A DNA stretch of 64,000 nucleotides from Actinophytocola sp. (lineage in GTDB: Bacteria; Actinomycetota; Actinomycetes; Mycobacteriales; Pseudonocardiaceae): NCBI RefSeq assembly GCF_035942955.1, contig NZ_DASZCQ010000160.1:18878-82877 (forward strand), given 5' to 3'. The stretch's first letter is position 1; each line of letters starts with the position of its first letter. The notes under the pieces are model-generated. The model was not told where the DNA came from and made no database searches. It worked only from the letters and a program-made list of their open reading frames with translations. Of this stretch, positions 1,654 through 21,990 are shown in pieces. A program made the position numbers and the translations under genes.

Positions 1654-1701
1654 GCGCCGGTGTCGGACGTGCCACGCTCGGTGCCTGGGCCGGCCGGGTG
1701 G

Positions 1702-2259: not shown

Positions 2260-2274
2260 GGGCCGAGCGTACGG

Positions 2275-2778: not shown

Positions 2779-2884
2779 TGCTGACCTCCGCTGCTCGACG
2801 AGGATCGTCTTCCCCTACGTCCTCACGAGCGGCGTGGTGTCAGGCCCTATTGTGCCCTGCCACCCTGCACTTTGGCCACATTGG

Positions 2885-4360
2885 TCACGCGTGTGCGCCG
2901 AGCAGGGTAGCCGCGGCGACCGTGTCGACCAGCCCCACCCCCTTGTCGAAGCTCGACGTGTACGGCCCGACCTGTTGGTACGCGGCGCCGTTGGTGAACT
3001 TGTACGCGGTGGACTTCAGCGCGTCCTCGATCTCCGCGGGGGTGGCCGCCGGCTTGGCCTGGAACAGCTGCGCCACGATCCCGGTGATCTGCGGGGCGGC
3101 CATCGATGTGCCGCTGATCACGTTGTACGTGCCGATGTCCAGCAGCCCCGGACCGTTGCGCGGGTCCAGGCCCGTCGAGCAGATCGGCAGGTACAGCCGG
3201 CAGGCGGAGATGATGTTCTCGCCGGGCGCGGAGATGTCCGGCCAGGTCTGCGGCCGGGTGCGGTCGCCGCGCGAGGAGAACGACGACACCTGGCCGTCGC
3301 GGGTCCCGGTGCTCAGGTCGTTGTACGAGGCGACGGACAGGATGCCCGGGGTCGGGTCCTGGCCGGGCGGGTTGGACAGGTTGGCCGTCCCGTCTTGGGC
3401 ACTGTCGCCGTCGTTGCCGTTCGCCCACACGGTGACCACGCCCTCCGCGGCCAGCGCGCGCTGCAGCCGGGCGGTCGCGGAGTTGGGGTCGAACTCGCCG
3501 CCGCCGCTCGGGCCGTAGGAGTTGTTGATCACCTTGATCGGCGGGCAGGTGGCCGCCGGAACCCCGGCGCCGCACGGGGCCCGGTGGTTCTCCAGCACCC
3601 AGTTCAGCGCCGCGTCCGCGCCGATGATCACGATCACCGCGCCGGTGGAGATGGACACGATCTTGGCGCCCGGGGCGGAGCCGCCGACCCTGGTCCCGTC
3701 GGTCAGGGTGAGCGGGCGGCCCGCGGCGATCCCGTTGACGTGGGTGCCGTGCCCGCCGAGCGCGAGCAGGTCGGTGTCCACAGTGGTCGGCACGTCCAGG
3801 ATGCAGCCGGTGCCGGTGCTGCTCTCGTCGACGCAGACGCTCTTGAGGCTGCGCACCACGCGGGTCTGGCCGTCGGCCCCGCGGAACGCCGGATGGGTCG
3901 GGTCGATGCCGGAGTCGATCACCGCGACCGACACGCCGCGGCCGTCCAGCGGGCGGCCGTCTGCGCCGAGCAGGGTCTGCTGCGCGGCCAGGCTCCTGGT
4001 CGCCGTGGTGCCGGGGCTGGCGAAGAACCGGAGTGGGTCGTTGTGCTCGACGTACCGGACGCCGGGCCGCGCGCGGGCGGCCCGCACCTGGGCGGCGGTG
4101 CCGCCGGCCGCCACGACGCCGATCCGGTCGAAGCTGGTCACCCGGGTCAGGCCGGTTGCCCGGACGGCGGCGTCGGCCGCGGCGAGGTCGGCGCCGTGCA
4201 CGAGCACGGTCATCGGCAGGGCGTCGGCCGCGGTGGCCAGCAGCCCGGACAGGGAGGCGGACACCGGCGCGAGCGGGCCGGGCGCGGCGGATGCGGGCAC
4301 GCCGGCGCCGAACGTGGCGGCGACGAGCGCGGTGGCCAGGGCGGCAACCGTGGTGCGCAT
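2885..4360 (-). CDS. secreted S8 family (subtilisin-like) serine peptidase
   Basis: The start is the internal ATG of ORF 2885..5755, preceded by AAGGAGGA. It has a signal peptide 'MRTTVAALATALVAATFGAGVPASA' and the triad motifs 'VAVIDSGID', 'GGHGTHVNG', 'SGTSMAAP'. Confidence 0.9.
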   Translation of the reverse strand: MRTTVAALATALVAATFGAGVPASAAPGPLAPVSASLSGLLATAADALPMTVLVHGADLAAADAAVRATGLTRVTSFDRIGVVAAGGTAAQVRAARARPGVRYVEHNDPLRFFASPGTTATRSLAAQQTLLGADGRPLDGRGVSVAVIDSGIDPTHPAFRGADGQTRVVRSLKSVCVDESSTGTGCILDVPTTVDTDLLALGGHGTHVNGIAAGRPLTLTDGTRVGGSAPGAKIVSISTGAVIVIIGADAALNWVLENHRAPCGAGVPAATCPPIKVINNSYGPSGGGEFDPNSATARLQRALAAEGVVTVWANGNDGDSAQDGTANLSNPPGQDPTPGILSVASYNDLSTGTRDGQVSSFSSRGDRTRPQTWPDISAPGENIISACRLYLPICSTGLDPRNGPGLLDIGTYNVISGTSMAAPQITGIVAQLFQAKPAATPAEIEDALKSTAYKFTNGAAYQQVGPYTSSFDKGVGLVDTVAAATLLGAHA

Positions 4361-4528
4361 GGGGTCCTCCTTACCGGGAACCGGGGTGTCCAACTCAACG
4401 AGTGACACCCGGACCGGTGACGGAGAAAAGTGAAGGTGATTCGGCCCAATCCATACGGCACTCATCGCGGCTCGGCGATAACGTGGGAGCCGGCCCACCC
4501 GGCAACGCGAGGGTCTGGGAGGTACGCG

Positions 4529-5827
4529 GTGCGGCTGATTCGGCTCGGCGACGCGACATCGGACGTCGGCGTGGACGTGCGGGCGGCGCTGGCCTCGTGG
4601 GGGCGCGGCGACCCGGTCGTCGGTGGGATCGCGCTCACCGGGGTCAGGCCGCCCGGTTGCCCGCACCCGGTCGAGGCGATCGTGGTGCTGCCCCGCGGGA
4701 TCCTCGTCGTGATCGGCGTGGACCTGCCCGATCCCGCGGTCCGGCTGGACGCTCCGCTGTCCGGCCAGTGGAAGACCGACGGCTGGCCGCTGGTCCGCGG
4801 CGACGGCGCGGTGAATCCCGGGGTCGAGGCCATGGCCGTGGCCGACGCGGTCCGGGCCCACCTGGAGCGGGCCAGGGTCGAGCCGCTGCCGGTCGGCACG
4901 GTGATCGCGGTCGGCCCGTACGTGTCCCAGGTGTTCCAGCCGACCGCCGACCTGCTGCGCGGCGTGCGGATTCTGCACCCGGAGCCGATGACGCTGCTTG
5001 GCGCCGCCCGTGAGCTGGCCGTGTACCAGGGGCGGTGCTCGGTCGACGGGGCGCGGCGGATCCTGGCCGCGCTCGACGCCGGTGCCGAGCTGGATCCGGC
5101 CGAGCTGGCCGCGGAGGGTTTCTCCACCGCCGCCGCTCCGGACCTGACCGCGGCCAGCACCACGCTGATCCCGAAGGTCACCGACCCCGAGCCGGTGCTC
5201 CCGCCGCCGGTCCGTCCCGTGCGCCCGAACGGTCAGCTGCGCTGGCTGCCGGTGGGCGCGGCGATCCTGGTGGCGCTGCTGCTGCTCACCGGGATCGTGG
5301 TGGCGGTGGTGTCCGCCGGGTCGGGCGCGACCGGCGCCACCAACCCACCGGCGCCAACGGCCCCGCCGACGCCCACCGGGATCCAGGTCGACGGCGTGTC
5401 GTTCGACCCCAAGGGCAGCAGCCGGGCCGAGGACTGCGCCAACCACGCCTACGGCGACCTGCAGGTCCGGCTGCAGCGCAGCACGTGCAGCCAGCTGATC
5501 CGGCTGCGCTACGAATCCACTTCGGACAACCACAAGGCCGCGATCCTGGTCGCGGTGCTGCGCTTCCCGGACAGCGCGTCGGCCGACGAGCTGCGCGCGG
5601 TGGCGGACAAGCCGGGCAGCGGCGCGGTGTCCGACGTCTCGGTCGAGGGCACCCCGTGGCCCGACGGCGGCAAGCCGTTCTTCGAGTCGGCCGCCTACGC
5701 CAGCGGCCGGGAGGGCACCAGCGTCAAGCTGGTGCAGGCGGTCTGGATGGACCAACCGTCCACACCGGACGACAAGACGCTCAAAGGCCTGGCGACACGG
5801 GCGCTGCAGCTGCCGGTGGAGGACTAG
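4529..5827 (+). CDS. hypothetical single-pass membrane protein (cytoplasmic N-domain, Pro-rich linker, TM, extracytoplasmic C-domain)
   Basis: From ORF 4430..5827. A GTG at 4529 follows GGGAGG; the alternative start is 4430. The TM helix is 'WLPVGAAILVALLLLTGIVVAVV'. Confidence 0.6.
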   Translation: MRLIRLGDATSDVGVDVRAALASWGRGDPVVGGIALTGVRPPGCPHPVEAIVVLPRGILVVIGVDLPDPAVRLDAPLSGQWKTDGWPLVRGDGAVNPGVEAMAVADAVRAHLERARVEPLPVGTVIAVGPYVSQVFQPTADLLRGVRILHPEPMTLLGAARELAVYQGRCSVDGARRILAALDAGAELDPAELAAEGFSTAAAPDLTAASTTLIPKVTDPEPVLPPPVRPVRPNGQLRWLPVGAAILVALLLLTGIVVAVVSAGSGATGATNPPAPTAPPTPTGIQVDGVSFDPKGSSRAEDCANHAYGDLQVRLQRSTCSQLIRLRYESTSDNHKAAILVAVLRFPDSASADELRAVADKPGSGAVSDVSVEGTPWPDGGKPFFESAAYASGREGTSVKLVQAVWMDQPSTPDDKTLKGLATRALQLPVED

Positions 5828-6831
5828 CCGCGCACCGCGGCGATCAGCTCGGGGGCGTAGCCGAACAGGCCGGGCAGGCCACCGGTGTGCAGGAACACCA
5901 CGGTCTCGTTCGCGCCGATGTCCCCGGAGCGGACCGCGTCGATCAGCGCGGCGGCGGCCTTGCCGGTGTAGACCGGATCAAGGGTGATGCCCTCCGTGCG
6001 GCCGAACAGCCGGATCGCCTCCCACACGGCCTCGGTCGGCACGCCGTAGCCGGGGCCGAGCGCCCGGTCGGTCACCCGCACGTGATCCAGCGCCGGGACG
6101 GGCACGCCGAGCAGGGCCGCGGATTCGGCGGCCAGGCGGCGGATGTCGGCCAGCGACTCGTCTGGCGGGTGCGACACCGACGCGGCGTCCAGGCGCACCG
6201 GCCAGTCCAGCAGCGCGGTGCCGAGCGCGAGCCCGGCGGCGGTGCCGGCGCTGCCGATCGGGCACACGATCCGGTCCGGGCCCGGATCTCCCACCTGTGA
6301 CCGCAGCTCCGCCGCGGCGGCGACGTAGCCGAGCGCGCCGACCCCGTTGGACCCGCCGACCGGCAGCGTGACCACGGACCGCCCGGCGGCCCGCGCCTCG
6401 GCGACCACCCGCCGGTAGGTGGCCGCGGTCTGCTCGTCGTCCTGGCAGATGTGCACGGCGGCGCCGTACAGCAGGTCGAGCGCGACGTTGCCGGAGCGCT
6501 CGTAGGCCTCCCCGGAACGCGGCACGGATCTGGTGAGCACCAGCTCGCAGCGCAGCCCGAGCCGGGCGCAGGCGGCCGCGGTCTGCCGGCCGTGGTTGGT
6601 CTGCACCCCACCGAAGGTGATCACCGTGTCCGCGCCGCCTTCCACCGCCTCGCCAAGCAGGAACTCCAGCTTGCGCAGCTTGTTGCCGCCGACGCCGAGC
6701 CCGTTCACGTCGTCCCGCTTGACCAGGATCCGCGGCCCGCCCAGCGCCGCGGACAGGCGCGGGCACTCCTCGAGCGGGGTCGGCCAGGCGCCCAGCGCGA
6801 TCCGGGCGAACCGGGACAGGTCGACCGGCAT
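5824..6831 (-). CDS. 1-aminocyclopropane-1-carboxylate deaminase / D-cysteine desulfhydrase family PLP enzyme
   Basis: ORF of 335 aa with the 'GGNKLRKLEFLL' PLP-lysine motif and 'FLHTGG'. Confidence 0.85.
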   Translation of the reverse strand: MPVDLSRFARIALGAWPTPLEECPRLSAALGGPRILVKRDDVNGLGVGGNKLRKLEFLLGEAVEGGADTVITFGGVQTNHGRQTAAACARLGLRCELVLTRSVPRSGEAYERSGNVALDLLYGAAVHICQDDEQTAATYRRVVAEARAAGRSVVTLPVGGSNGVGALGYVAAAAELRSQVGDPGPDRIVCPIGSAGTAAGLALGTALLDWPVRLDAASVSHPPDESLADIRRLAAESAALLGVPVPALDHVRVTDRALGPGYGVPTEAVWEAIRLFGRTEGITLDPVYTGKAAAALIDAVRSGDIGANETVVFLHTGGLPGLFGYAPELIAAVRG

Positions 6832-6841
6832 TCGGACCTCC

Positions 6842-7210
6842 TTACGTCGCGAACGAAGCCGTGGTCGAGTAGCCGAGGACCGCCGCGCCGATGCCGGCCA
6901 CCACGGTGAACGCCACGTTGGCCACGGCGAGGAACCGGGCCCGCTCCTGGGCCAGCCGGACGGTCTCGTAGCCGAAGGTGCTGTACGTGGTCAGCGCGCC
7001 GCAGAAGCCGGTGCCGAGGAACGCGGCCAGGTTGCCGGGCAGCGCGGTGCCGATCCCGGCGAGCACCCCGAGCAGCGCGGCGCCGGCGACGTTGACCGTG
7101 GTGGTGCCCCACGGAAACACCGAGTCGTGGCGCTGCTGGACGAACCGGTCGGCCAGGTAGCGCAGCGGCGCGCCGACCGCACCGCCGAGCGCCACCAGCA
7201 GCAGGATCAT
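6842..7210 (-). CDS. crcB: fluoride channel CrcB/FluC subunit
   Basis: ORF of 122 aa with four hydrophobic segments and 'GFCGALTTYSTF'. It is paired with a second crcB through a 4-nt overlap. Confidence 0.85.
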   Translation of the reverse strand: MILLLVALGGAVGAPLRYLADRFVQQRHDSVFPWGTTTVNVAGAALLGVLAGIGTALPGNLAAFLGTGFCGALTTYSTFGYETVRLAQERARFLAVANVAFTVVAGIGAAVLGYSTTASFAT

Positions 7211-7695
7211 CGGGCCACCGCCGCGCGCCGGGTGGCCAGGCGGGTCAGGTGGACGCCCACCCAGACCGCCAGCACCGCGGCGGCGACCGTGCCGGCCAGG
7301 TAGGCGAGGCCGGTGAGCTCCGATCCGGGACGGAGCAGGGCACGCACGTCCTCCGCATAGGTGGAGAACGTGGTGAACCCGCCCAGCACGCCGACGCCGA
7401 GGAACGGGCGCAGCAGCAGACTCGTCCGGTACACCTCGGTCACCAGCACCATGAGCGCGCCGATCAGCAGGCAGCCGCCCACGTTGACCAGAAAGGTGGC
7501 CAGCGGGAACCCGCCGGGCGGCACGGCGATCGCGGCGGTCAGCGCGTAGCGGCCGAGCGCGCCGAGCGCCCCGCCGAGCGAGATGACGGCCAGCACGGCG
7601 CCGTGCGTGCGGGCGAGCTCCTGGCGCTGCTCCGGGATGTGCAGATCGATGTCCGGGTCGACCGGCCCGCCGGCCCAGTCGTGATCACCTGGCAA
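7207..7695 (-). CDS. crcB: fluoride channel CrcB/FluC subunit (second paralogue, N-terminal extension)
   Basis: From ORF 7207..8106, motif 'GVLGGFTTFSTY'. A TTG at 7695 follows GAAGGAGG; the alternative ATG is at 7749. The start is uncertain. Confidence 0.75.
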   Translation of the reverse strand: MPGDHDWAGGPVDPDIDLHIPEQRQELARTHGAVLAVISLGGALGALGRYALTAAIAVPPGGFPLATFLVNVGGCLLIGALMVLVTEVYRTSLLLRPFLGVGVLGGFTTFSTYAEDVRALLRPGSELTGLAYLAGTVAAAVLAVWVGVHLTRLATRRAAVAR

Positions 7696-7811
7696 CTCGC
7701 CTCCTTCGAGTGATGGCCATGCCGCCACACCGCGCCATTTGCCCCTCATCCCGCCGCCCGACCGATATTCTGCGTGCCGGCATGTGAACCGGATGCACCT
7801 GGAGGGACATC

Positions 7812-8147
7812 GTGGCGCAGAAGACCGTTGTCGAGCTGGTCGACGATCTCGACGGTGGACAGGCCGCCGAGACCGTGTTCTTCGCCCTCGATGGCGTGGA
7901 CTTCCGCATCGACCTGTCGAGCGAGAACGCCGCCCGGCTGCGCGACACCCTGGCGGAGTACGTGGGTCACGCGCGCCGCGTCGGATCCCACAACCAGAAG
8001 GGTCGCGCCGGCACGCGGCGCAACGGCGACAAGCCCGACGTTCAGGCGATCCGGGAGTGGGCCCGCAACCAGGGCGAGACCGTCGCCGAGCGCGGCCGCC
8101 TGTCACACGATCTGCTGACCCGGTTCCAGGAAGCGCACAGCAACTAG
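7812..8147 (+). CDS. lsr2: Lsr2 family nucleoid-associated protein
   Basis: ORF of 111 aa with a GTG start after GGAGGGA. Motifs: 'AQKTVVELVDDLDG...' N-domain and a C-terminal 'IREWARNQG..V..RGR' AT-hook-like DNA-binding motif. Confidence 0.9.
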   Translation: MAQKTVVELVDDLDGGQAAETVFFALDGVDFRIDLSSENAARLRDTLAEYVGHARRVGSHNQKGRAGTRRNGDKPDVQAIREWARNQGETVAERGRLSHDLLTRFQEAHSN

Positions 8148-8497
8148 CTGGGGTTTCGCCCCGCGGGGCGGGTGGGGGCGCCCTGGTTTGTGGGGTGGTC
8201 GGGTGGCGTCTGCGGGTTGGGCTTCAGCGGAGTCCGGCGTGTCCGCCTTCCCGCAGGCAGGTTCGGCACTCGTGCAGCCGTGTGACGCGTTCCGGTGGCC
8301 GACCTTGCCGGGGCCCTTGGTTTCCGGGGTGGTTTGGTGGCGTTGTCGGGCCGGGGTTCCAGCGTGGTCCGGCGCAGTGCTCACTGTTCGGGCGGGGAAT
8401 TGCCGGTTCGGGCATTTTCGCGCCGGAATGGCGATCATGGGCGTCTTAGCATGACGGCGGGTCCGGCGGAGTAAACCGTGAATTAAGGTTGCTCCTT

Positions 8498-9625
8498 GTG
8501 AAGATCGCCGTACCTGCCGAGACGATGCCGGGCGAGCGGCGGGTCGCCCTCGTGCCGGAGCTCGTCTCCCGCCTGACCGATGCCGGCCTCGAGGTCGCGG
8601 TGGAACCCGCGGCCGGGGCGGCGGCTCGCTATTCCGATGATGCCTACCGTTCCGCCGGCGCCGCGGTCGAAGCCGACGCGCTGGACGGGGCGCAGGCCCT
8701 GCTGTGCGTGCAACCGCCCGCGATCGAGCAGGTGCACCGGCTCGACAAGGACGCGATCACGATCTCGTTCCTGCCGACCGCCCGTGAGCTGGAGCTGGTG
8801 CGGGCGCTGCGCGATGCCGGGACGACGGCGTTCGCCATGGAGCTGGTGCCGAGGGTGTCGCGGGCGCAGGCGATGGACGCCCTGTCGTCCCAGGCGCTCG
8901 TCGCCGGGTACCGGTCCGCTCTCATCGCCGCGGAGCGGCTGCCGCGGTTCTTCCCGCTGCTGATGACCGCCGCGGGCACCGTGCCGCCTGCGCGGGTGCT
9001 CGTGCTGGGCGCGGGCGTGGCCGGGTTGCAGGCCATCGCCACCGCGCGCCGGCTCGGCGCGGTCGTGCGCGCCTACGACGTGCGCGCGGCGGCGGCCGAG
9101 GAGGTGCGCAGCGTGGGCGCGGAGTTCATCGACCTGGACCTGCCGACGTTGGAGGGCGCCGGCGGGTACGCCAGGGAGGCGACCGAGGAGCGGGCTCGGC
9201 GGCAGCGGGAGCTGCTCGCGCCGCACGTGGCCGACGCCGACGCGTTGATCACCACGGCCGCGGTGCCGGGCCGGCCGGCGCCACTGCTGGTCACCCGGGA
9301 GATGGTGGAGGCCATGAAGCCGGGCTCGATCGTGGTGGACCTGGCCGCGGAGTCGGGTGGCAACGTGGAGGGCTCGAAGCCGGGCGAGGAGCTGACCGTC
9401 GGCAACGCCCGGGTCTGGGGCGGGCGCAACGTACCCAGCCAGATGCCGGGGCAGGCCAGCCGGTTGTACGCCACCAACGTGGTCAACCTGCTGCTGCTGA
9501 TGAACGCCGACGGTGAGCTCAAGCCCGACCTGTCCGACGAGGTGCTCGCCGGGTGCTGCGTCACCCACGCCGGCGAGGTGCGGCACGGCCCGACCCGCGA
9601 GCTGCTCGGCGAGGACGCCGAGTGA
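8498..9625 (+). CDS. pntAA: NAD(P) transhydrogenase subunit alpha part 1
   Basis: From ORF 8489..9625 (GTG at 8498). Rossmann motif 'VLVLGAGVAGLQAIATARRLGA'; the gene order is pntAA-AB-B. Confidence 0.9.
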   Translation: MKIAVPAETMPGERRVALVPELVSRLTDAGLEVAVEPAAGAAARYSDDAYRSAGAAVEADALDGAQALLCVQPPAIEQVHRLDKDAITISFLPTARELELVRALRDAGTTAFAMELVPRVSRAQAMDALSSQALVAGYRSALIAAERLPRFFPLLMTAAGTVPPARVLVLGAGVAGLQAIATARRLGAVVRAYDVRAAAAEEVRSVGAEFIDLDLPTLEGAGGYAREATEERARRQRELLAPHVADADALITTAAVPGRPAPLLVTREMVEAMKPGSIVVDLAAESGGNVEGSKPGEELTVGNARVWGGRNVPSQMPGQASRLYATNVVNLLLLMNADGELKPDLSDEVLAGCCVTHAGEVRHGPTRELLGEDAE

Positions 9626-9930
9626 TGGACGGGGTCGCCCTGCTGACCGTGTTCGTGCTGGCGATCTTCGTGGGCTACGAGGTCATCTCGAAGGTGTCGT
9701 CGACCCTGCACACGCCGCTGATGTCCGGATCCAACGCGATCAGCGGCATCATCCTGGTCGGCACGATCGCGGTCGCCGCGCACACCGAGTCGGAGCTGAT
9801 CTTCGCGCTCGAGCTCGTCGCCGTGGCACTGGCCGCGGTGAACCTGGTCGGCGGCTTCGTGGTGACCGACCGGATGCTGCGGATGTTCCGCGGCCGCCGG
9901 GAACGCCGGGAGGAGAACGTCAAGCTGTGA
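9625..9930 (+). CDS. pntAB: NAD(P) transhydrogenase subunit alpha part 2 (membrane)
   Basis: The internal ATG of ORF 9553..9930 overlaps the pntAA stop (TGATG). The ~100-aa product is hydrophobic, with 'LHTPLMSGSNAISGI'. Confidence 0.9.
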   Translation: MDGVALLTVFVLAIFVGYEVISKVSSTLHTPLMSGSNAISGIILVGTIAVAAHTESELIFALELVAVALAAVNLVGGFVVTDRMLRMFRGRRERREENVKL

Positions 9931-10021
9931 GCGGAGCTTGCGGAGCGAACCATTCAACGCTGCCCCGTCGCCGAGGGACGAGGCGACGGGGTTGCCATCA
10001 CCGAGCTTGCGAGGAGAGGGA

Positions 10022-11395
10022 GTGACCGCCACCGGGGCCTCGCTGGGCTATCTGCTGGCCTCGGTGTGCTTCATCGTCGCGCTCAAGGGCCTGTCCTCGC
10101 CGAAGTCGGCCCGGCTGGGCAACGCGATCGGCGCGGCCGGCGCGCTGGTCGCCGTCGTGGTGGTGTCGCTCGTCGCGCGGCCGGACCGGCTGGCGCTGAT
10201 CCTGCTGGCGATCCTGGTGGGCGGGGCGATCGGGGTGATCGCCGCCGAGCGCGTGCGGATGACCGCGATGCCGCAGATGGTGGCGCTGTTCAACGGCGTC
10301 GGCGGGGCGGCGGGCGCGCTCGTCGCGCTGCTGGAGCTGGCCGAGACCGGCGGCCGCGGCGACGTCGACCAGCTGGCAGTGGCGGCGTTCACCGTGCTGA
10401 TCGGCTCGGTGACGTTCTCCGGTTCGGTGCTCACCTTCGCCAAGCTGCAGGAGCTGGTCACCGGCCGGCCGCTGATCTTCCCGGGAATGCGCCCGGTGGC
10501 CGCGCTGGCCGTGGCCGGGGCGCTGGCCGCCGGGATCCTGGTCCCGATCGGGACCCCGCTAGTCGTGGTGGTGCTGCTGGCCTTCGTCAGCCTCGGGCTC
10601 GGGCTGCTGCTGGTGCTTCCGGTCGGCGGCGCCGACGTGCCCATCGTGATCTCACTGCTGAACGCGTTCAGCGGCATCACGGTGACCGCGAGCGGCTACG
10701 TGCTCGGCAACGTGCTGATGATCGTGGCCGGCACCCTGGTCGGCGCCTCCGGCATGCTGCTGACCAAGCTCATGGCCAACGCCATGGGGCGGTCGCTGGT
10801 CAACATCATGTTCGGCGCGTTCGCCGGACCGTCCACTTTGGGCAGTACGGTGGAGACCGACCGGCCGGTCCGCTCGGCCGGCCCGGCGGACATCGCGATC
10901 CTGCTCGGGTACGCCCGCAAGGTGATCGTGGCCCCCGGGTACGGGCTCGCGGTCGCACAGGCCCAGCACACCCTGCGGGACCTCACCGACGAGCTGGAGC
11001 GGCGCGGGGTGACGGTGGAGTACGCGATCCATCCGGTCGCCGGCCGGATGCCCGGCCACATGAACGTGCTGCTGGCCGAGGCCGACGTGCCGTACCACAA
11101 GCTCAAGGAGATGTCCGTGATCAATCCGGAGTTCCGGACCGCGGACGTCGCGCTCGTCGTCGGCGCCAACGACGTGGTCAACCCGGCCGCGCACACCACC
11201 CCCGGCTCCCCGATCTACGGCATGCCCATCCTGGCCGCCGAGGACGCGGCCGCGATCGTGTTCCTCAAGCGGTCGCTGCGCCCGGGTTTCGCCGGCATCG
11301 ACAACGAGCTGCTGCACGGCCCCAAGACCACCCTGCTGTTCGGCGACGCCAAGGACTCGCTGGCCAACCTCGTCGCCGCGGTCAAGGCTCTCTGA
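10022..11395 (+). CDS. pntB: NAD(P) transhydrogenase subunit beta
   Basis: From ORF 9938..11395; a GTG at 10022 follows GGAGAGGGAG. It is polytopic, with the C-terminal NADP domain 'IVAPGYGLAVAQAQH', 'GRMPGHMNVLLAEA', 'VVGANDVVNPAA'. Confidence 0.9.
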   Translation: MTATGASLGYLLASVCFIVALKGLSSPKSARLGNAIGAAGALVAVVVVSLVARPDRLALILLAILVGGAIGVIAAERVRMTAMPQMVALFNGVGGAAGALVALLELAETGGRGDVDQLAVAAFTVLIGSVTFSGSVLTFAKLQELVTGRPLIFPGMRPVAALAVAGALAAGILVPIGTPLVVVVLLAFVSLGLGLLLVLPVGGADVPIVISLLNAFSGITVTASGYVLGNVLMIVAGTLVGASGMLLTKLMANAMGRSLVNIMFGAFAGPSTLGSTVETDRPVRSAGPADIAILLGYARKVIVAPGYGLAVAQAQHTLRDLTDELERRGVTVEYAIHPVAGRMPGHMNVLLAEADVPYHKLKEMSVINPEFRTADVALVVGANDVVNPAAHTTPGSPIYGMPILAAEDAAAIVFLKRSLRPGFAGIDNELLHGPKTTLLFGDAKDSLANLVAAVKAL

Positions 11396-11439
11396 GCGGG
11401 TACGGTAATGATCCGGAGCTACTGGGAGGCAGGCAATCC

Positions 11440-11643
11440 ATGGTGAACGAGTCCGAGGTCAAGGACACCATCCAGGTGGCCACCGACGTGACGGTGGACC
11501 ATCTCGGCCGAATCGCGTCGATCATCGCCGGAGCCGTCCGGGACATCGCGCAGGAACTCGGCAGCTGGGCCAACGACATCCTCGAGGCGAGGGACACGGC
11601 CCAGCGCAGCCGCGCCGACGAGACCGTCGTCGACCCCGAATAA
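11440..11643 (+). CDS. small hypothetical protein (67 aa, acidic)
   Basis: An ATG after GGGAGG, in the tail of frame 10066..11643. I recognise no family. Confidence 0.45.
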   Translation: MVNESEVKDTIQVATDVTVDHLGRIASIIAGAVRDIAQELGSWANDILEARDTAQRSRADETVVDPE

Positions 11644-11645
11644 TC

Positions 11646-11693
11646 GTCTAGCAGTTCTAGACATTATGTGAGATGTCTAGTTAGCCTAGACAT
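11646..11693. promoter_or_regulatory. two tandem palindromic operator-like sites, GTCTAG-N5-CTAGAC (11646-11662) and ATGTCTAG-N5-CTAGACAT (11673-11693)
   Basis: Read directly from an AT-rich 50-nt intergenic patch. The centres are 29 bp apart, and site 2 ends 2 nt before the ATG at 11695. Confidence 0.6.
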
Positions 11694-11694
11694 C

Positions 11695-12237
11695 ATGGTG
11701 ATCGATGACGGGCTGCTCCGACGGGCCCGCGAGGCCGCCGCACGCCTGGCCGACGCGCAGCGCCAGACCGATCTCGCCAAGGCCGACTACCACCACGCGG
11801 TGCGGCGGCTCCACTTCGCCGGCGCGTCCATGCGGGAGATCGCCGACGCGCTCGAGCTCAGCCACCAGCGGGTGCACCAGATCATCGAGGCGACCGGCGG
11901 CACCGGCGGCTGGAAGGCGCGCAAGAAGGCCACCGCCGACCTGGCGTGCAGCTTCTGCGGCCTGCCCAAGGACGAGGTCACCAAGCTCGTCGCCGGACCG
12001 GGCGTGTTCATCTGCGACGAGTGCGTCCGCCTCGTGCACCGGGCCCGCAGCGGTTCGGTGGAAACCTCCCGCACCCGACTGGATCCGGTGCCGGCCGGCA
12101 GTCGCCTGGAATGCTCGTTCTGCGGTAAGGCCGCGCCGAAGGCGTCCACCCTGATAGCCGGGCCGGGCGTGCGCATTTGCGCCGAATGCCTGCAGCTGTG
12201 CGACGACGTCCTCGCCGCGTCAGAACCGCAGTCGTGA
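11695..12237 (+). CDS. HTH domain protein with two ClpX-type C4 zinc-finger domains
   Basis: From ORF 11668..12237 (ATG at 11695). HTH '[21 protein letters not shown]'; 'CSFCG..(19)..CDEC' and 'CSFCG..(19)..CAEC' match the ClpX N-terminal zinc-binding domain pattern. Confidence 0.7.
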
Positions 12238-12810
12238 ACCTTGGCGATCGTCGAGCTCGGGAATGCTCAGCCGCCTCAGCACGTTCTCCACGAACTCCGT
12301 CTTGCCGGCCGTATACGCTTCTCGGTCGTCGCCGTGCTGCTGAGCGAGCCGACGTTTCAGTTCCACGTACCGCTGTGCGAGCTGGCCGTCGCGACGTAGC
12401 GCGTCCCGGAATCTGACCATCTCCGCCCATTGGGGGTCCCCGGCCCGGACCAGGTGCAAATGCGCCTTCCGCCGTCGCTTCGAAGCGTCCGGCTTGACGA
12501 AGAAGCGCCGCCACGGTCGACAATCCAGTTCTGGAGGTATTAAACACCAACCGTCCGCCGCGAGTAACTCCGATGCTTGGTCAACCACCAGATTCAGATC
12601 GCCCACCGAGGCCATCAGGTCGATGATCGGCTTGGCGGCGAGCCCCGCGACCGCCGTGGATCCGATGTGCTCGACGCCATCGACCAGCCATGGCCCCAGC
12701 AACTCGGTCAGCCGTTCAGATTCCACCCTCGCCCGGACCGCCCACCGAGGATCATGCGGATGCACCTCAGGCCGTTCATATGCCCATGCAGGAGTAGGAC
12801 CATTCATCAC
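12220..12810 (-). CDS. GrpB family protein (UPF0157)
   Basis: ORF of 196 aa with '[21 protein letters not shown]', 'HLHLV', and 'FRDALR......YV.LKRRLA'. Confidence 0.8.
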
Positions 12811-12897
12811 ATCATCACTCTACCTTGACCAGGTGACAACGAGCGGCCATCGCGTGGACAAATGGCTGCGTCGTCGCACCTTGGAAGGACGCACGAT

Positions 12898-13365
12898 CTA
12901 GCCTGACGAACCGTTGTCGGCAGTAAGGCAATTTCGTACCTGATCTAGGTGGACAAGGTCCTTGGGTCGTTGAAGCAGGAACTTGTAGTAAAGTACGCAC
13001 TCAAGCCGAACAAACCGAAATCCACTCAGCCACTCGGCCTGGTCGATAAGCAGGTCGGTCTCCCAGTACCGCGGTAACCACTCGCTGAACACTTCTATCT
13101 TGCCGCCCCAGAACTGGATCAGCGGAATACCACGCAAGGGTCCGAAAACGGATACGCCGAGCCGCCGCGCCCGATCCCAGGCGGGGCCCCGGGCAATGAT
13201 ATCCAGATCCCCGATGGTCGGAATCATGCCGCGAACGTAGAGTGGTGCGCTACCGAAGATGGCGAAGTGATCCCGATCGAGATCCAGCTCGATCAGGCGG
13301 TTGAACAAGGAGTGTTCGGTAGGATCGAAAGACACCCGACTCGACGACATGACCGCTTCCTTCAT
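12898..13365 (-). CDS. Pol-beta-superfamily nucleotidyltransferase-like protein
   Basis: ORF of 155 aa with 'FGSAPLYVRG...IGDLDII' (GS...DxD pattern). GC is lower than in the flanks. Confidence 0.5.
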   Translation of the reverse strand: MKEAVMSSSRVSFDPTEHSLFNRLIELDLDRDHFAIFGSAPLYVRGMIPTIGDLDIIARGPAWDRARRLGVSVFGPLRGIPLIQFWGGKIEVFSEWLPRYWETDLLIDQAEWLSGFRFVRLECVLYYKFLLQRPKDLVHLDQVRNCLTADNGSSG

Positions 13366-13372
13366 CGCTCAA

Positions 13373-14047
13373 TTAAGAGGTAGGAGTTTCGCCACGAGCG
13401 ATTGACTGCAGGGTATCCAAGTCAAGAATCGTGATGCTCTGACGTCCTACTGAGAGTATGCCTCGTGCTTTCAAGGGACGAACGACCTTCTTCACTGAAT
13501 CAGTTGAAATCCCGGCGAGTTCGGCCAGGTCGATTTGGCTGAAGCGGAGAACCTTCTTCCCGCCGGTGGTAATTCCAAGGCCTCTTGTCCAGAGGTCGAC
13601 TATTGACTTGGCCAGTTTCTGGGCGCCGGCCAGTTGCGACTCGACCGTCATGTGGGTCGACTCCGCCAGTCGCTCCTGCAAGGTGTTGACCAGGGCCAAT
13701 GTCGCGCGGAAATTGCTCTCCAGAAAAGTCAACCACTTGGTCGCCGAGAGATGGAGTGCCTCAACCTCTTCCAGGGCGAAAATACTGGCCGATCGCGGCT
13801 TGTTGCGAATTGCGGCCATCTCTCCGACCAGATCACCGGGACCGCGTATGGCGACGACTCGACGTGGAGAGCCGGCAACGACCTTGACATGCCCCTTGCG
13901 AATAAGCAGGACGAAGGTCGTCGTCTCGCCTTCTCCCATGAGAATGTTGCCCTTGGGAAAGCGGATCACATCCCCTATCGCCTCCAAAGTGGAGATTTCC
14001 TCCTCCGTGAGGCGGACGTCTAGCTGATAATGGGCGACATCCTCCAT
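13373..14047 (-). CDS. Crp/Fnr family transcriptional regulator (cNMP-binding + HTH)
   Basis: The start is the internal ATG of ORF 13373..14410. cNMP-like motif 'FPKGNILMGEGE....L.KG.VKV', 'GDLVGEMA', C-terminal HTH 'SQIDLAELAGISTDSVKKVVRPLKARG'. The region is low in GC. Confidence 0.8.
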   Translation of the reverse strand: MEDVAHYQLDVRLTEEEISTLEAIGDVIRFPKGNILMGEGETTTFVLLIRKGHVKVVAGSPRRVVAIRGPGDLVGEMAAIRNKPRSASIFALEEVEALHLSATKWLTFLESNFRATLALVNTLQERLAESTHMTVESQLAGAQKLAKSIVDLWTRGLGITTGGKKVLRFSQIDLAELAGISTDSVKKVVRPLKARGILSVGRQSITILDLDTLQSIARGETPTS

Positions 14048-14268
14048 GCAGCTAAGTGTACTCCTACACCTAGCTTGGTGCCAAGGTCCAGCTTCCGGAT
14101 CATGGCGGCCGAACTCCGCCCCAGAGATCAATCCAGTACGCGCGCGGAACCAGCTGATCGAGCAGGGCTTGCTCCCGCCGGGGCAGATCGGCAACGCGCC
14201 GCCACCGATCGGCCGCCAGCCCGACCCCATCGCAACGGAAAGACCCCGCGGGTGAGACTGTCCAATCT

Positions 14269-15064
14269 CTACAGCCGAATGTTCAGTGGGCACCGCGGCC
14301 GGGCGAGGATTCGGCGAGTCGAGGGGCGCCGGGTTGATGGCCTCGTCGACCGCGAAAGCCGGCGTCGCGGGTCCTGCCGACCCGGACTGCGGCGCAACAC
14401 CAACCCTCATGACCGCGAACGGTTTCGGGCCTGGGATGCGGATGGGCTAGACGGGGATGTTGCCGTGGGGCGCCGCGGCCGGCGGAGGCGGCGGCGAACT
14501 TGCGGCGGGTGTGGACCGGGCCGATGACCTCGTCCACCACAAGAGCCGGTGTCGAGTCCCTGCCGACCCAGACCGTGGGGAGAGGCTGTTGCCACGCCGC
14601 GCGCGGCGCGGCAACGACCGCATGACCGCGAACGGTTCGGGCCCGTGGTGTGGATGGCTACAGCCGAATGTTCCGTGGGCGGCGTGGGCGGCGGCGAGCT
14701 TGCGGCGGGTGTGGACCGGGCCGGTGACCTCGTCCACCACGAGAGCGGCGTCGCGCCCCCTGCCGACCCAGGCCATGTGAAGAGGTTGGTGCTGCGCAGC
14801 GCGCTGCGCGCGCGGCGCAGCAAACAACCTCACGATCGCGAACATGTTCGCGCCCGTGGATGGCTACCGGGAATGCTCCCGTGAGCGCGGCCGGCGAGGG
14901 TTCGGCGAGTTGAGGGGCGCCGGGTTGATGGCCTCGTCGACCGCGAAAGCCGGCGTCGCGGGTCCTGCCGACCCGGACCGCGGGGGAGAGGTTGTTGTCG
15001 CGGCGCGCGGCGCGACAACAACCGCACGGCCGCGAACGGGGTTGGGCCTGGGGGTGTGGATGGG
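14269..15064 (-). repeat. four tandem degenerate ~190-205 bp units, each holding a remnant of the last ~110-130 nt of the adjacent carboxyltransferase gene, a spacer and (in three units) a GC hairpin
   Basis: Pseudo-stops 'cta' lie at 14269, 14457, 14658 and 14864; the real stop is at 15065. Units 1 and 4 are near-identical, as are units 2 and 3. Hairpins lie at 14588-14615, 14784-14829 and 14990-15023. Confidence 0.85.
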
Positions 15065-16492
15065 CTAGAGGGGGATGTTGCCGTGGGCGCCGCGGCCGGC
15101 GGGGGCGGCGGCGAGGGCCTCGGCGAGTTTGCGGCGGGTTTGGGCGGGGTCGATGACCTCGTCGACGACGCCGATGGCCATGGCGCGGTCGACGCCGCCG
15201 GCGATCATCTCGTGCTCCTCGGTGAGGCGGGCGTGGAGGGCTTCGCGCTCCTCCTCGGGGGCGGCGGCGAGCTTCTTGCGGTGCAGGATGCCGACCGCGG
15301 CCTTGGCGCCCATGACGGCGACCTCGGCCTCCGGCCAGGCGAACACCGTGGTGGCGCCGAGCGCGCGGGAGTTCATCGCGATGTACGCGCCGCCATAAGC
15401 CTTGCGGGTCACCAGCGTCACCCGGGGCACGACGGCCTCGGCGAAGGCGTGCAGGAGCTTGGCGCCGCGCCGGACCACACCTTCCCACTCCTGGCCGACG
15501 CCGGGAAGGTAGCCGGGCACGTCCACCACGACCAGCAGTGGCACGCCGAACGAGTCGCACATGCGCACGAACCGGGCGGCCTTCTCGGCCGACAGCGAGT
15601 CGAGGCAGCCGCCCTTGCGCAGCGGGTTGTTGGCGATCACGCCGACGGTGCGCCCGCCGAGCCGGCCGAGCCCGACCACGATGTTGGGCGCCCACTTGGC
15701 CTGCAGCTCCTCGAACATGGAGACGTCGCCGTCGTGGTCGAGGATGCCGCGCAGCAGCGGCTTGACGTCGTATGCGCGGTTGGCCTGCTCGGGCAGCAGC
15801 ACCCGCAGGTTCTCCTCCTTGCGCACGGTGTGCAGGTCGAACAGGCCGGGCCGGGCGAACAGCGAGGTGATCCGCCGGGCCCGCCGGTAGGCGTCAGCCT
15901 CGTCGGTGGCGAGCACGTGCACCACGCCGGAGCGCCGGCCGTGCGCCTCGGCGCCGCCGAGGCCCTCCTGGTCGATCTGCTCACCGGTGACGCTGCGTAC
16001 CACGTCCGGCCCGGTGACGAACACCCGCCCCTCCGGCGACATGATCACCACGTCGGTCAGCGCCGGCCCGTAGGCGGCGCCCCCGGCGGCCGGGCCGACC
16101 ACCACCGAGATCTGCGGGATCCGGCCGGACGCCCGGATCATCGCGGCGAACACCTGGCCGACCGCGTCCAGCGACTCCACGCCCTCGGCCAGCCGCGCCC
16201 CGCCGCAGTGCCAGACCCCGAGCACGGGGCAGCGCTCCCGCACCGCGGTGTCGATCGCCTCGACGATGTGCCGGCACCCCTCGGTGCCCATCGCGCCACC
16301 CATCTTGGTGGCGTCGGTGCAGTAGGCGATCACCTTGGTGCCGTCGATGCGCCCACGCACCGCGTACACCCCGGACGAGTCGGCCGGGTGCAGCGGTGCC
16401 ATCGAGCCGGGGTCGAGCAGTGCGGTGAGCCGGACCTCCGGTTCTCGGGGGTCGAGCTGGCGCGCACCGGGCCGCGTGGCCACTGCGGTCAT
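15065..16492 (-). CDS. acyl-CoA carboxylase carboxyltransferase beta subunit (AccD6-like, last gene of the fab operon)
   Basis: From ORF 15065..16522; an ATG at 16492 follows GAGGAG. Motifs: 'DATKMGGAMG', 'GGARLAEG', 'GPAAGGAAYGPALTD', 'RKAYGGAYIAM'. The gene order resembles fabD-acpM-kasA-kasB-accD6. Confidence 0.85.
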   Translation of the reverse strand: MTAVATRPGARQLDPREPEVRLTALLDPGSMAPLHPADSSGVYAVRGRIDGTKVIAYCTDATKMGGAMGTEGCRHIVEAIDTAVRERCPVLGVWHCGGARLAEGVESLDAVGQVFAAMIRASGRIPQISVVVGPAAGGAAYGPALTDVVIMSPEGRVFVTGPDVVRSVTGEQIDQEGLGGAEAHGRRSGVVHVLATDEADAYRRARRITSLFARPGLFDLHTVRKEENLRVLLPEQANRAYDVKPLLRGILDHDGDVSMFEELQAKWAPNIVVGLGRLGGRTVGVIANNPLRKGGCLDSLSAEKAARFVRMCDSFGVPLLVVVDVPGYLPGVGQEWEGVVRRGAKLLHAFAEAVVPRVTLVTRKAYGGAYIAMNSRALGATTVFAWPEAEVAVMGAKAAVGILHRKKLAAAPEEEREALHARLTEEHEMIAGGVDRAMAIGVVDEVIDPAQTRRKLAEALAAAPAGRGAHGNIPL

Positions 16493-16529
16493 CAAGTGCT
16501 CCTCGGATAAGTGGACATCCACAACCGGA

Positions 16530-21374: not shown

Positions 21375-21688
21375 AAGGCCAGCGTAGGCGGCCCATCCCG
21401 GTCGAGACCGAACAGGCCGCCTGGCGAACTCGGTGCGCTCGATGCCAGGCGGCCCATCTCCCCGGTCCCCACCGGTTCCTCCACTATGGACGGATATTGA
21501 TCACCGTGCCACCCACGTCCCCCGATCGTGGCATGTCGCCTTGCCCGGCCCCGGGTTCCGGCCGGCATTCGGCGGAGTGTCCAGTGTGGACAAGGAGGCG
21601 CAGAGCCACCCGGGGCGCCGGAGAGAAGCTCGCCAAGCTGAAGCGCGCCGCCGCGCGCTGCGCGCGGCGGCGGCACGCCCCAGCAATT

Positions 21689-21900
21689 GCGACTGCGCTG
21701 CACCCGCATCGGGGTCGGGGAGCGAAGGTGGCCTTCCCTGCGATGGCGGCCGCCTTCGCCTGCCCTACAGGGCTCCCTGCAGCAGGGCGCGGTGTGCGGC
21801 CACCCAGTCGTAGCCGGCGCGTGCGTGCGCCAGCCTCGATTCCGCCAGCAGCGGTCCTGCCACCACAGGATGGTGTCCGCCAAAGAATCGCGGTCGACGG
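21689..21900 (-). pseudogene. degenerate tandem copy of the 3' end (~135 nt, with an internal deletion) plus ~75 nt downstream flank of the phosphotransferase gene at 21991..22725
   Basis: 'gcgactgcg...ggggtcgggg...gcctgccCTAcagggctccctgcagcagggcgcggtgtgcggc' at 21689-21800 matches 21909-22027. The period is 220 bp. Confidence 0.8.
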
Positions 21901-21990
21901 TTCATTCAGCGACTGCGGCGGCTGTGCGCCCGCCGGGGTCGGGGGAGCGGAGGTGGCCTTCCCCGGCGATGAGGGCCGCCTCCGCCTGCC

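What the first reader, a model, noticed from the sequence alone, without database searches (positions are those of the whole stretch)
14269..15064. Array of four tandem, degenerate copies of a gene's 3' end plus a hairpin, directly downstream of the fab-operon carboxyltransferase
Beyond the real stop (15065) the sequence repeats four times with a 188-206 bp period. Each unit holds a remnant of the last ~35-45 codons and ends in its own pseudo-stop (compare the real 'VDEVIDPAQTRRKLAEAL..GRGAHGNIPL*' with 'VDEVIGPVHTRRKFAAA..GRGAP..'). A ~40-nt spacer and a GC-rich hairpin follow; the best hairpin has a 13-bp perfect stem at 14990-15023.

The units fall into two subtypes arranged A-B-B-A. Members of a subtype are much more similar to each other than to the live gene. 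The array borders a low-GC insertion (12.8-14.1 kb).

One reading is serial integration and loss of elements that target this gene's 3' end and bring their own replacement ends, leaving stacked attachment-site scars. The alternatives are local unequal recombination or a structured multi-terminator/RNA element. A second instance at 21689-21990 makes the pattern hard to dismiss.
Basis: seen in the sequence. Interest (0 to 1): 0.6.

Follow-up and report, generated by a model that had tools for sequence, protein, structure and literature searches.

The report
Decayed tandem copies of accD6 end
Behind a fatty-acid-synthesis gene of a soil actinomycete lie four decayed head-to-tail copies of the gene's own last 100 bases, each with a GC-rich hairpin; they most likely arose by local duplication around that hairpin and not by repeated visits of mobile elements, so this is mostly ordinary genome wear.

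Summary
After the stop codon of an AccD6-type carboxyltransferase gene (15065-16522, minus strand) come four degenerate copies of its last ~100 nt. The first three carry a spacer and a GC-rich hairpin; the hairpin is deleted in the third copy.

The array is unique to this genome. It is missing in 4 congeners (titled Actinophytocola/Labedaea) and in 75 other relatives. Nothing supports integrase-made attachment scars:
- no recombinase gene lies nearby;
- no further unit copy exists in the genome;
- the units resemble the resident gene best;
- decay does not increase with distance from the gene.

The junctions are uniform, and a ~600-nt higher-order repeat (97% identity) points to local duplication followed by unequal crossover.

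The same anatomy recurs in this genome:
- a sister array sits 17 kb away behind the convergent gene that bounds the same rearranged segment;
- about 25 other genes carry a pseudo-copy of their 3' end.

A species-specific palindrome family (~40 loci) has duplicated flanks at 11 of 36 sites, against 8 of 253 control sites. One of those sites is empty in all four congeners.

The scan noted similar 'stacked displaced gene ends' before on other DNA (gap, mfd). Interest is modest. The palindrome family is the more novel lead.

The parts
15065..16522 (-). AccD6-type acyl-CoA carboxyltransferase gene, last gene of the fabD-fabH-acpP-fabF cluster. It is intact and its end is conserved in relatives.
   Evidence: Pfam Carboxyl_trans, E 1.4e-129. 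92-95% amino-acid identity to 4 congeners.
14942..15166 (-). Source unit R0: the last 102 nt of the gene including the stop (15065-15166) plus a 123-nt post-stop segment
   Evidence: Alignment of units. Homology with congeners stops at the stop codon.
14990..15023 (-). Hairpin of R0, 13-bp perfect GC-rich stem; probable terminator of the operon
   Evidence: Family model R1 scores 18.5 bits over 14974-15039, which spans this hairpin.
14738..14941 (-). Unit U1 (subtype A); pseudo-stop 14866-14864, hairpin 14784-14829
   Evidence: Family model R1 scores 27.9 bits over 14770-14845, the best hit in the window.
14538..14737 (-). Unit U2 (subtype B); pseudo-stop 14660-14658, hairpin 14584-14619
   Evidence: R1 scores 21 bits over 14588-14615.
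14351..14537 (-). Unit U3: head like U2 (91%), tail like the live end, +1 frameshift, hairpin deleted (relic 14389-14406)
14269..14350 (-). Unit U4: head 95-97% like U1. It ends exactly at its pseudo-stop (14271-14269), and what follows is not element-like.
   Evidence: Shuffle test: 62 of 300 shuffles reach the observed score.
12220..14268 (-). Low-GC, lineage-specific DNA next to the array: Crp-like regulator, unknown 155-aa ORF, GrpB. No recombinase.
   Evidence: No DNA match in congeners apart from one weak 167-nt match.
1687..12219 (.). Block that lies directly after accD in congeners. Here it is displaced and inverted, so one rearrangement breakpoint sits exactly at the accD stop codon.
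   Evidence: tblastx synteny with 4 congeners.
21689..21990 (-). Second instance: one decayed copy of the 3' end of the phosphotransferase-like gene 21991-22725 plus a hairpin. A family-like palindrome lies at 21626-21693.
   Evidence: R1 scores 26.6 bits.

Best explanation
The array is a fossil of local duplication. It does nothing that needs explaining beyond, probably, terminating the fab operon transcript at the first hairpin.

Step 1 (inferred): in this lineage a GC-rich palindromic segment came to lie just after the accD stop codon, together with a second copy of the last ~100 nt of the gene (layout T-E-T). The likely route is a replication or repair template switch at short homologies such as GTCGAC.

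Step 2 (supported by the sequence): unequal crossover or slippage between the T copies expanded this to T-E-T-E-T-E-T-E-T. The most recent event duplicated about 600 nt.

Step 3 (shown): only the copy joined to the gene stayed under selection. The others picked up frameshifts, 7- and 12-nt deletions and loss of one hairpin.

The palindromes themselves probably make the site prone to such events. The same process has hit many other gene ends in this genome.
For: - **Uniform junctions.** All four junctions are the same (…TCGYG|GTSGACGAGG).
- **Recent segmental copying.** The R0 tail plus U1 head equals the U3 tail plus U4 head at 97% over 91 nt, with 591-nt spacing. The U2 and U3 heads are 91% alike.
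- **Local origin.** The units have no other copy in the 7.4-Mb genome. They match the resident end and that of the closest congener best.
- **Lineage-specific.** The array is absent from 4 congeners and 75 further relatives.
- **Layout.** The array ends with a T copy at its stop codon, not with a hairpin. This is expected if T-E-T was the founding state.
- **A documented T-E-T.** At C108 an ~89-nt palindromic insert is bracketed by two copies of an 84-91-nt gene end that is present once in all 4 congeners.
- **Recurrence.** A sister array lies behind the convergent ThDP-enzyme gene at C160:16295-16975 (four pseudo-copies of 170 nt, each gene end plus hairpin). In all, 46 of 4835 genes have a same-strand copy of their end within 1.5 kb downstream, against 1 on the opposite strand.
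- **Young duplicates.** Those at 96-98% identity have simple microhomology junctions.
- **Codon positions.** Differences between live ends and pseudo-copies fall 76/89/137 on positions 1/2/3, that is 45% at the third (summed). This fits one constrained copy and one decaying copy.
- **Link to palindromes.** Flank duplication of at least 40 nt occurs at 11 of 36 palindrome-family sites against 8 of 253 control gene ends.
Against: - The founding T-E-T step is inferred from other loci. No intermediate exists for accD.
- The accD hairpins match the palindrome family only weakly: 18-28 bits with the covariance model, below genome-wide significance, and no hit with the extended 290-nt profile.
- At C108 all 7 clean differences between the two end copies are synonymous. 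In-situ duplication alone does not predict this. It needs a later allelic replacement or an imported end.
- No same-species genomes or reads were available to show copy-number variation.
- A role for the repeated hairpins in termination or RNA stability cannot be excluded.
Confidence: 0.7

Rival explanations
1. Small enzyme-less cassettes (a replacement gene end plus hairpin) were imported from other strains by recombination. Each pushed the previous end downstream, giving stacked displaced ends.
For: - At C108 the two end copies differ only at synonymous third positions (7 of 7), as alleles from different lineages would.
- The last accD unit ends at its stop codon, like an original end with its own downstream DNA.
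- The palindromes are lineage-specific inserts.
- The scan noted such stacks elsewhere.
Against: - The accD units show no synonymous bias (3 synonymous against 5 non-synonymous changes plus a frameshift, read from the sequence).
- They are closest to the resident gene.
- Decay shows no gradient with distance, and 97%-identical segments span unit borders.
- The pooled codon-position spectrum is 45% at the third position, not 70% or more.
- An import still needs a first T-E-T event in some genome.
Confidence: 0.12
2. Attachment-site scars from serial site-specific integration and loss of integrase-bearing elements that target the accD 3' end.
For: - The repeated segment runs from inside the gene to its end, as att sites in gene ends do.
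- The array abuts low-GC, lineage-specific DNA.
Against: - No integrase, resolvase or transposase lies in 11.6-14.4 kb.
- No repeat copy marks the far side of the low-GC DNA or any other place in the genome.
- Four imprecise losses with identical junctions would be needed.
- None of 79 relatives has anything inserted at this gene end.
Confidence: 0.04
3. A selected multi-terminator or structured RNA element: the repeated hairpins are kept because they improve termination or stabilise the operon's 3' end.
For: - Three strong hairpins (-51.8 to -62.5 kcal/mol for 120-nt segments) keep their pairing although the stem sequences differ.
- The gene is the last of an operon.
Against: - The hairpin is deleted in U3 and absent after U4.
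- Only U1 folds clearly better than shuffles (z = -3.5; the others -0.8 to -1.5).
- There is no Rfam match.
- Congeners manage with one short hairpin or none.
- Palindromes can keep their symmetry by intra-strand templated repair, without selection.
Confidence: 0.1
4. Assembly artefact of a fragmented draft genome or MAG.
For: - The genome is in 364 contigs.
- Several palindrome-family copies sit at contig ends.
Against: - The units differ by 27-40% and by several indels, so they share no long k-mers that could mislead an assembler.
- The array lies 33 kb inside a 92-kb contig.
Confidence: 0.03

Closest known systems
E. coli tRNA-linked repeats
   Same: Head-to-tail units. Each holds the last bases of the upstream gene plus downstream terminator-region sequence. 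They lie directly after the live gene and have no associated enzyme.
   Different: There the parent is a tRNA gene and the copied end is about 19 nt. Here the parent is a protein-coding gene and the copied end is about 100 nt, with a long GC-rich palindrome. The copies here are far more decayed.
Bacterial minisatellites / MIRU-VNTR of mycobacteria (Supply et al. 1997; own knowledge)
   Same: Tandem units in the spacers of actinobacterial operons that evolve by slippage and unequal crossover.
   Different: MIRUs are 40-100 bp, dispersed at many loci as one family, and carry small ORFs that bridge the neighbouring genes. The units here are 190-225 nt, derive from the neighbouring gene itself and are locus-specific.
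Palindrome- and REP-associated rearrangements (REP at duplication join points, Shyamala et al. 1990, own knowledge; reviews PMC7999016 and PMC12708500; template-switch amplification in E. coli, PMC1428787; these three papers seen as titles and abstracts only)
   Same: Hairpin-forming DNA as a site of fork stalling, breakage, template switching and duplication with microhomology junctions.
   Different: The described REP cases are large duplications between distant REPs. Here the duplications are 150-530 nt and include the palindrome. No RAYT/Y1 transposase exists in this genome.
Partial tRNA or gene ends left by integrase-mediated genomic islands (Williams 2002; own knowledge)
   Same: Repeated copies of a gene's 3' end downstream of the live gene, next to foreign-looking DNA.
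   Different: Those repeats bracket an island that carries an integrase. Here there is no integrase, no bracketing copy, and nothing between the units.
'Stacked displaced gene ends' noted earlier in this scan (gap in a Patescibacteria genome, mfd in Flavobacteriales)
   Same: Several cast-off copies of a housekeeping gene's end, with hairpins and no recombinase nearby.
   Different: Those stacks are interleaved with cargo genes or distinct cassettes and were read as imports. Here the units are contiguous, mosaic and resident-like, which fits local duplication better.

Membership tests
Attachment-site scars of integrase-borne integrative elements | Tyrosine or serine recombinase gene next to the repeats | tested here: not met
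   Pfam on the main long ORFs of 10-14.5 kb and on the other breakpoint finds Crp-like, GrpB, ClpX zinc-finger, AurF-like and reductase proteins, and only a transposase-like HTH fragment without a catalytic domain 17 kb away.
Attachment-site scars of integrase-borne integrative elements | A second repeat copy bracketing the inserted DNA (attL/attR pair) | tested here: not met
   BLAST of all units against the whole genome finds copies only inside the array.
Attachment-site scars of integrase-borne integrative elements | Related genomes show the same gene end occupied by elements | tested here: not met
   4 congeners and 75 other relatives have a single gene end. In the congeners a convergent conserved gene follows within about 20-60 nt.
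Tandem duplication array evolving by unequal crossover (minisatellite-like) | Head-to-tail copies with one and the same junction | tested here: met
   Four junctions align at GTSGACGAGG; periods are 187-225 nt.
Tandem duplication array evolving by unequal crossover (minisatellite-like) | Mosaic or higher-order identity between non-adjacent units | tested here: met
   97% over 91 nt at 591-nt spacing, 97% over 30 nt at 617-nt spacing, and 91% between the U2 and U3 heads.
Tandem duplication array evolving by unequal crossover (minisatellite-like) | Units derive from the adjacent resident sequence | tested here: met
   The best matches of U1-U3 among 76 orthologous gene ends are the resident end and its closest congener. 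U4 is too decayed to place (resident end ranks 8th).
Tandem duplication array evolving by unequal crossover (minisatellite-like) | Copy number varies between strains of the species | not testable with these tools
Dispersed palindrome family of this genome (~40 loci) | Significant match to the family profile or covariance model | tested here: inconclusive
   R1 gives 27.9, 21 and 18.5 bits for the three accD hairpins. These are three of the four best-scoring sites in the 64-kb window, but they fall below the roughly 31 bits reached at E 0.01 genome-wide. The extended nhmmer profile has no hit in the array.
REP elements mobilised by RAYT (Y1 transposase) | A Y1 transposase gene in the genome | tested here: not met
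   PF01797 has no match in the 99.7%-complete genome, while the control genomes do respond.
Known structured RNA (Rfam) | Match to an Rfam covariance model | tested here: not met
   No match at gathering score in the window and none at E up to 1 in 14100-15200. Only chance-level matches appear at family loci.
C-terminal displacement arrays (Rhs/CdiA-type orphan ends) | Displaced ends encode alternative intact C-termini with partner genes | tested here: not met
   The units carry frameshifts and deletions, and no ORFs or partner genes lie between them.

The most novel reading that the evidence does not exclude
This species carries a recently expanded family of gene-less palindromic elements: a ~70-nt hairpin core, a ~290-nt long form, about 40 loci, none in four congeners, and no Y1 transposase. 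The family spreads by template switching or a related repair process. It inserts with long and variable duplications of the target (about 30-260 nt). When it lands at a gene end it leaves a displaced pseudo-end. Unequal crossover then turns such sites into arrays like those behind accD, the ThDP-enzyme gene and the histidine kinase on contig C7.
Probability: 0.3. Interest if true: 0.7.

Novelty: new member of a known kind. Interest (0 to 1): 0.35.

Why it matters
By itself the array is a neutral scar. It warns annotators that the ORFs and hairpins downstream of accD are pseudo-copies and not genes or att sites.

Two things make it worth a note:
- **A whole-genome pattern.** Tandem copies of gene ends occur at about two dozen genes, and a species-specific palindrome family has duplicated flanks about ten times more often than control sites. 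That offers a natural data set on how hairpin DNA drives small duplications in a high-GC actinomycete.
- **A cautionary case.** 'Stacked gene ends' can arise without any mobile element bringing replacement ends. This is a useful control for similar findings elsewhere in this scan.

Tried and rejected
1. **Foreign origin of the units.** I compared each unit with 76 orthologous accD ends. The resident end and its nearest congener score best for U1-U3, so I rejected this.
2. **Other copies of the units in the genome, next to integrases.** There are none.
3. **A fifth element remnant after U4.** I first thought I saw one. The shuffle test shows no significance (62 of 300 shuffles), so I withdrew it.
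4. **Replacement alleles shown by a synonymous-only difference pattern.** This holds at one locus (C108) but not in the pooled data (45% at third positions) and not for accD.
5. **Hairpin plus spacer as a member of the dispersed palindrome family.**
   - nhmmer on the accD post-stop part finds only a weak hit at C226 (E 0.0016).
   - The family covariance model gives sub-threshold scores.
   - The extended profile gives nothing.
   - I report this as a resemblance only.
6. **The ~100-nt dispersed repeat at 9927-10028 as the source of the hairpins.** Its sequence is unrelated.
7. **Rfam and RAYT searches.** Both were negative.
8. **MAFFT plus RNAalifold on mixed hairpins.** This gave a poor structure, so I wrote the structure by hand for a cleaner alignment.
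10. **Literature searches for a description of gene-end tandem arrays in actinomycetes.** They found only general reviews.

Full report
**What is there.** The window is G000:C160:18878-82877, from a 7.4-Mb, 364-contig genome. The genome belongs to the Pseudonocardiaceae; its congeners are titled Actinophytocola sp. and Labedaea sp..

On the minus strand a fatty-acid synthesis cluster ends with a carboxyltransferase gene at 15065-16522 (Pfam Carboxyl_trans, E 1.4e-129). The preceding ORFs I read as fabD, fabH, acpP and fabF from their order and size; only the carboxyltransferase was checked against Pfam.

After its stop codon the sequence restarts four times at the motif GTSGACGAGG, which lies 102 nt before the real stop:

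| Unit | Coordinates | Length |
|---|---|---|
| R0 (live end plus post-stop part) | 15166-14942 | 225 nt |
| U1 | 14941-14738 | 204 nt |
| U2 | 14737-14538 | 200 nt |
| U3 | 14537-14351 | 187 nt |
| U4 | 14350-14269 | 82 nt |

A full unit consists of:
- a copy of the gene's last ~100 nt, with a pseudo-stop;
- about 25 nt of spacer;
- a GC-rich hairpin;
- a ~45-nt tail that itself holds a small conserved stem (GGGTCGGCAGGACCC).

Tandem Repeats Finder finds the array (period 200, score 502). BLAST between units gives E-values of 1e-26 to 1e-35. Units are 61-73% identical to the live end and carry 7- and 12-nt deletions. U3 also has a +1 frameshift, so none can encode the protein end.

The hairpins lie at 14990-15023 (13-bp perfect stem), 14784-14829 and 14584-14619. 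In U3 the hairpin has been deleted. After the pseudo-stop of U4 the similarity ends. An apparent remnant there is not better than shuffled sequence (62 of 300 shuffles reach its score).

**Is it shared?** No.
- In four congeners (AccD 92-95% identical) DNA homology stops exactly at the stop codon. A conserved convergent gene follows within about 20-60 nt.
- None of 75 further relatives with usable downstream sequence has a second copy of the gene end.
- The block that follows accD in the congeners lies in this genome at window 1687-12219, inverted and rearranged. The space next to accD is filled by the array plus 2 kb of low-GC DNA that the congeners lack, carrying a Crp-like regulator, an unknown ORF and GrpB.
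- So one rearrangement breakpoint lies exactly at the accD stop codon.

**A sister array.** The other edge of the rearranged segment is the 3' end of a convergent ThDP-enzyme-like gene (my reading of its C-terminal sequence; a Pfam scan of its last 98 residues found no family). It lies at C160:14723-16294 on the plus strand, just outside the window.

It is followed by four pseudo-copies (170-nt period, up to 92% alike) of its own last ~75 nt, plus stop codon, GC-rich hairpin and spacer (C160:16295-16975).

Next to that array lie:
- a transposase-like HTH fragment without a catalytic domain, which I take to be IS630-like from its domain order;
- low-GC genes for an AurF-like oxygenase and a reductase.

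The 17-kb segment between two conserved convergent genes is thus bracketed by two arrays of the same anatomy, each made from its own gene's end. That rules out a single element with matching att sites. It points to a process that acts at gene ends with hairpins.

**Testing the integration reading.**
- No recombinase gene lies near either array.
- The units occur nowhere else in the genome.
- Among 76 orthologous gene ends, the resident end and that of the closest congener score best for U1-U3. U4 is too decayed to place.
- U2 and U3 keep the ancestral CAC...AAG that the live gene has since changed. This fits copying from an earlier state of the same gene.
- Decay shows no gradient with distance. 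The U3 tail is the part most like the live end. The stretch 'R0 tail + U1 head' equals 'U3 tail + U4 head' at 97% over 91 nt. Together with two further matches at 617-618-nt spacing, this reveals a recent duplication of about 600 nt across unit borders.
- All junctions are identical.

These are the marks of a tandem array that evolves by unequal crossover or slippage. They are not the marks of four independent integrations followed by four imprecise losses.

**The wider pattern in this genome.** I used a simple gene map: 4835 ORFs with GC3 of at least 0.85.
- 46 genes have a same-strand copy of their last 120 nt within 1.5 kb downstream, against 1 on the opposite strand. About 25 of these lie within 600 nt and are partial 3'-end duplications.
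- Young examples (96-98% identical: a P450 gene on C185, genes on C316 and C296) are plain tandem duplications. The C185 case joins at a 13-nt microhomology.
- Differences between live ends and pseudo-copies (21 pairs under 20% divergence) fall 76/89/137 on codon positions 1/2/3, that is 45% at the third position. My rough calculation for one constrained copy and one freely decaying copy gives about 48%. Two alleles both shaped by selection should give well over 60% (summed).

**A palindrome family.** While comparing hairpins I found a dispersed family in this genome.
- It has a ~70-nt hairpin core (...AAGATCGCC-GTG-AAACGACGGC-GCGCCGCGCGC...GCGCGGCGC-GCCGTCGTTT...). Some copies extend to about 290 nt.
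- There are about 40 loci by nhmmer. A hand-structured covariance model gives 49 hits on both strands. Its 18 pairs form in 87% of cells, and 7 pairs show changes on both sides.
- It has no Rfam counterpart. The genome has no Y1/RAYT transposase.
- The four congeners lack the family.
- 11 of its 36 sites have at least 40 nt of flank duplicated 145-530 nt away, against 8 of 253 control gene ends.
- Some sites are arrays of gene end plus element. One is a histidine-kinase gene on C7 (263-nt period, 2.8 copies), absent in congeners.
- Others are single elements bracketed by two copies of the flank. At C108 an ~89-nt insert lies between two copies of an 84-91-nt gene end that is present once in all four congeners, so the empty site is documented.
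- The insert's borders coincide with short homologies (CACGT). This is my reading of the sequence. It favours template switching over a transposase with fixed ends.

The accD hairpins share the family's architecture. Together with the palindrome behind the second instance, they are the four best-scoring sites for the family model in the whole window (27.9, 26.6, 21 and 18.5 bits). These scores are below genome-wide significance, and the extended profile does not hit the array. Membership therefore stays open.

**Most likely history and mechanism.** The accD array has four element segments and five end copies. It finishes with an end copy at its stop codon. That is the layout expected if the founding state was T-E-T, as at C108, and later unequal crossovers between T copies added units. 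A simple duplication of 'T+E' would finish with E.

- Shown: the local, resident origin of the units; the higher-order duplication; the decay.
- Inferred: the T-E-T founding step, and the idea that the palindromes provoke these events by stalling or breaking replication. Such behaviour of palindromes is well described in general (PMC7999016, PMC12708500, PMC1428787; titles and abstracts only).

I see no sign of a selected function. One hairpin is lost. Only U1 folds clearly better than shuffled sequence. Congeners do without any of this. The first hairpin probably terminates the operon's transcript.

**What does not fit.** At C108 all seven clean differences between the two end copies are synonymous C/G changes. 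That looks like allelic divergence. It needs either a later replacement of the live gene by recombination with another strain or an imported end. This keeps a small-cassette import model alive for the family as a whole, though not specifically for accD.

**Comparison with known things.**
- The closest analogue I know is the set of tRNA-linked repeats behind E. coli tyrT, where each 178-bp unit repeats the end of the tRNA gene (own knowledge).
- MIRU-type minisatellites and REP-associated duplications share parts of the picture.
- Integrase scars and Rhs/CdiA displacement arrays fail their defining tests here (see the membership table).
- Earlier notes of this scan describe 'stacked displaced gene ends' behind gap and mfd in other phyla. 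The present case shows that a similar picture can come from local duplication.

**Verdict.** This is a real, lineage-specific, decaying tandem array produced by local duplication around a palindromic terminator-like segment, at a rearrangement breakpoint. It is a new member of a known kind. Interest is 0.35. The palindrome family with long target duplications is the part worth following up.

**Limits.**
- Only one genome of the species is available.
- My gene map is approximate.
- The congeners' full genomes could not be scanned for the same pattern.

Noticed in passing
G000:C160:16295-16975 (about 1.9-2.6 kb before the start of the window): Sister array: four pseudo-copies (170-nt period) of the last ~75 nt, stop codon and hairpin of a ThDP-enzyme-like gene (C160:14723-16294, plus strand). 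It lies at the other edge of the same rearranged 17-kb segment. The congeners I could check (G002-G004) leave no room for it there.
   Followed up: partly
whole genome G000, e.g. C285:15739-15813, C197:15412-15488, C81:5041-5115, C178:21309-21381: A species-specific dispersed palindrome family: ~70-nt hairpin core, long form ~290 nt, about 40 loci. It has no Rfam match, the genome has no Y1 transposase, and 4 congeners lack it. 11 of 36 sites have at least 40 nt of flank duplicated nearby, against 8 of 253 controls. Several copies sit at contig ends.
   Followed up: partly
G000:C108:1240-1963 (locus L138): An ~89-nt palindromic insert sits between two copies of the last ~85 nt of a gene; I did not identify the gene. 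The site is empty in all four congeners. The two copies differ at 7 positions, all synonymous C/G third positions, which plain in-situ duplication and decay does not predict.
   Followed up: partly
G000:C7:7100-7873 (locus L131): A histidine-kinase gene end plus a bona fide family palindrome is repeated 2.8 times (263-nt period) and runs into the contig end. Congeners have one copy.
   Followed up: partly
window 9927-10028: A different ~100-nt dispersed repeat (GAGCGGAGCTTGCGGAGCGAACC...GACGGGGTTGCC) with about 135 BLAST hits in this genome and dozens in the congeners, often in tandem pairs. It is unrelated to the accD units.
   Followed up: no
window 1687-12219 compared with congeners: The gene block between accD and the ThDP-enzyme gene is inverted, with an inner block re-inverted, relative to four congeners. 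Low-GC foreign-looking DNA has been added at both ends.
   Followed up: partly
G000:C160:16860-19787 (window -2017 to 910): A transposase-like HTH fragment (HTH_29/HTH_32, no DDE domain), followed by an AurF-like N-oxygenase gene and a ferredoxin-reductase gene in a lower-GC stretch.
   Followed up: no
G000:C185:17398-17939, C316:36151-36538, C296 near 2134, C187 near 15678, C204 near 62738: Young (92-98% identical) tandem duplications of gene 3' ends. In the two I read (C185, C316) the unit holds no palindrome, and C185 joins at a 13-nt microhomology.
   Followed up: partly
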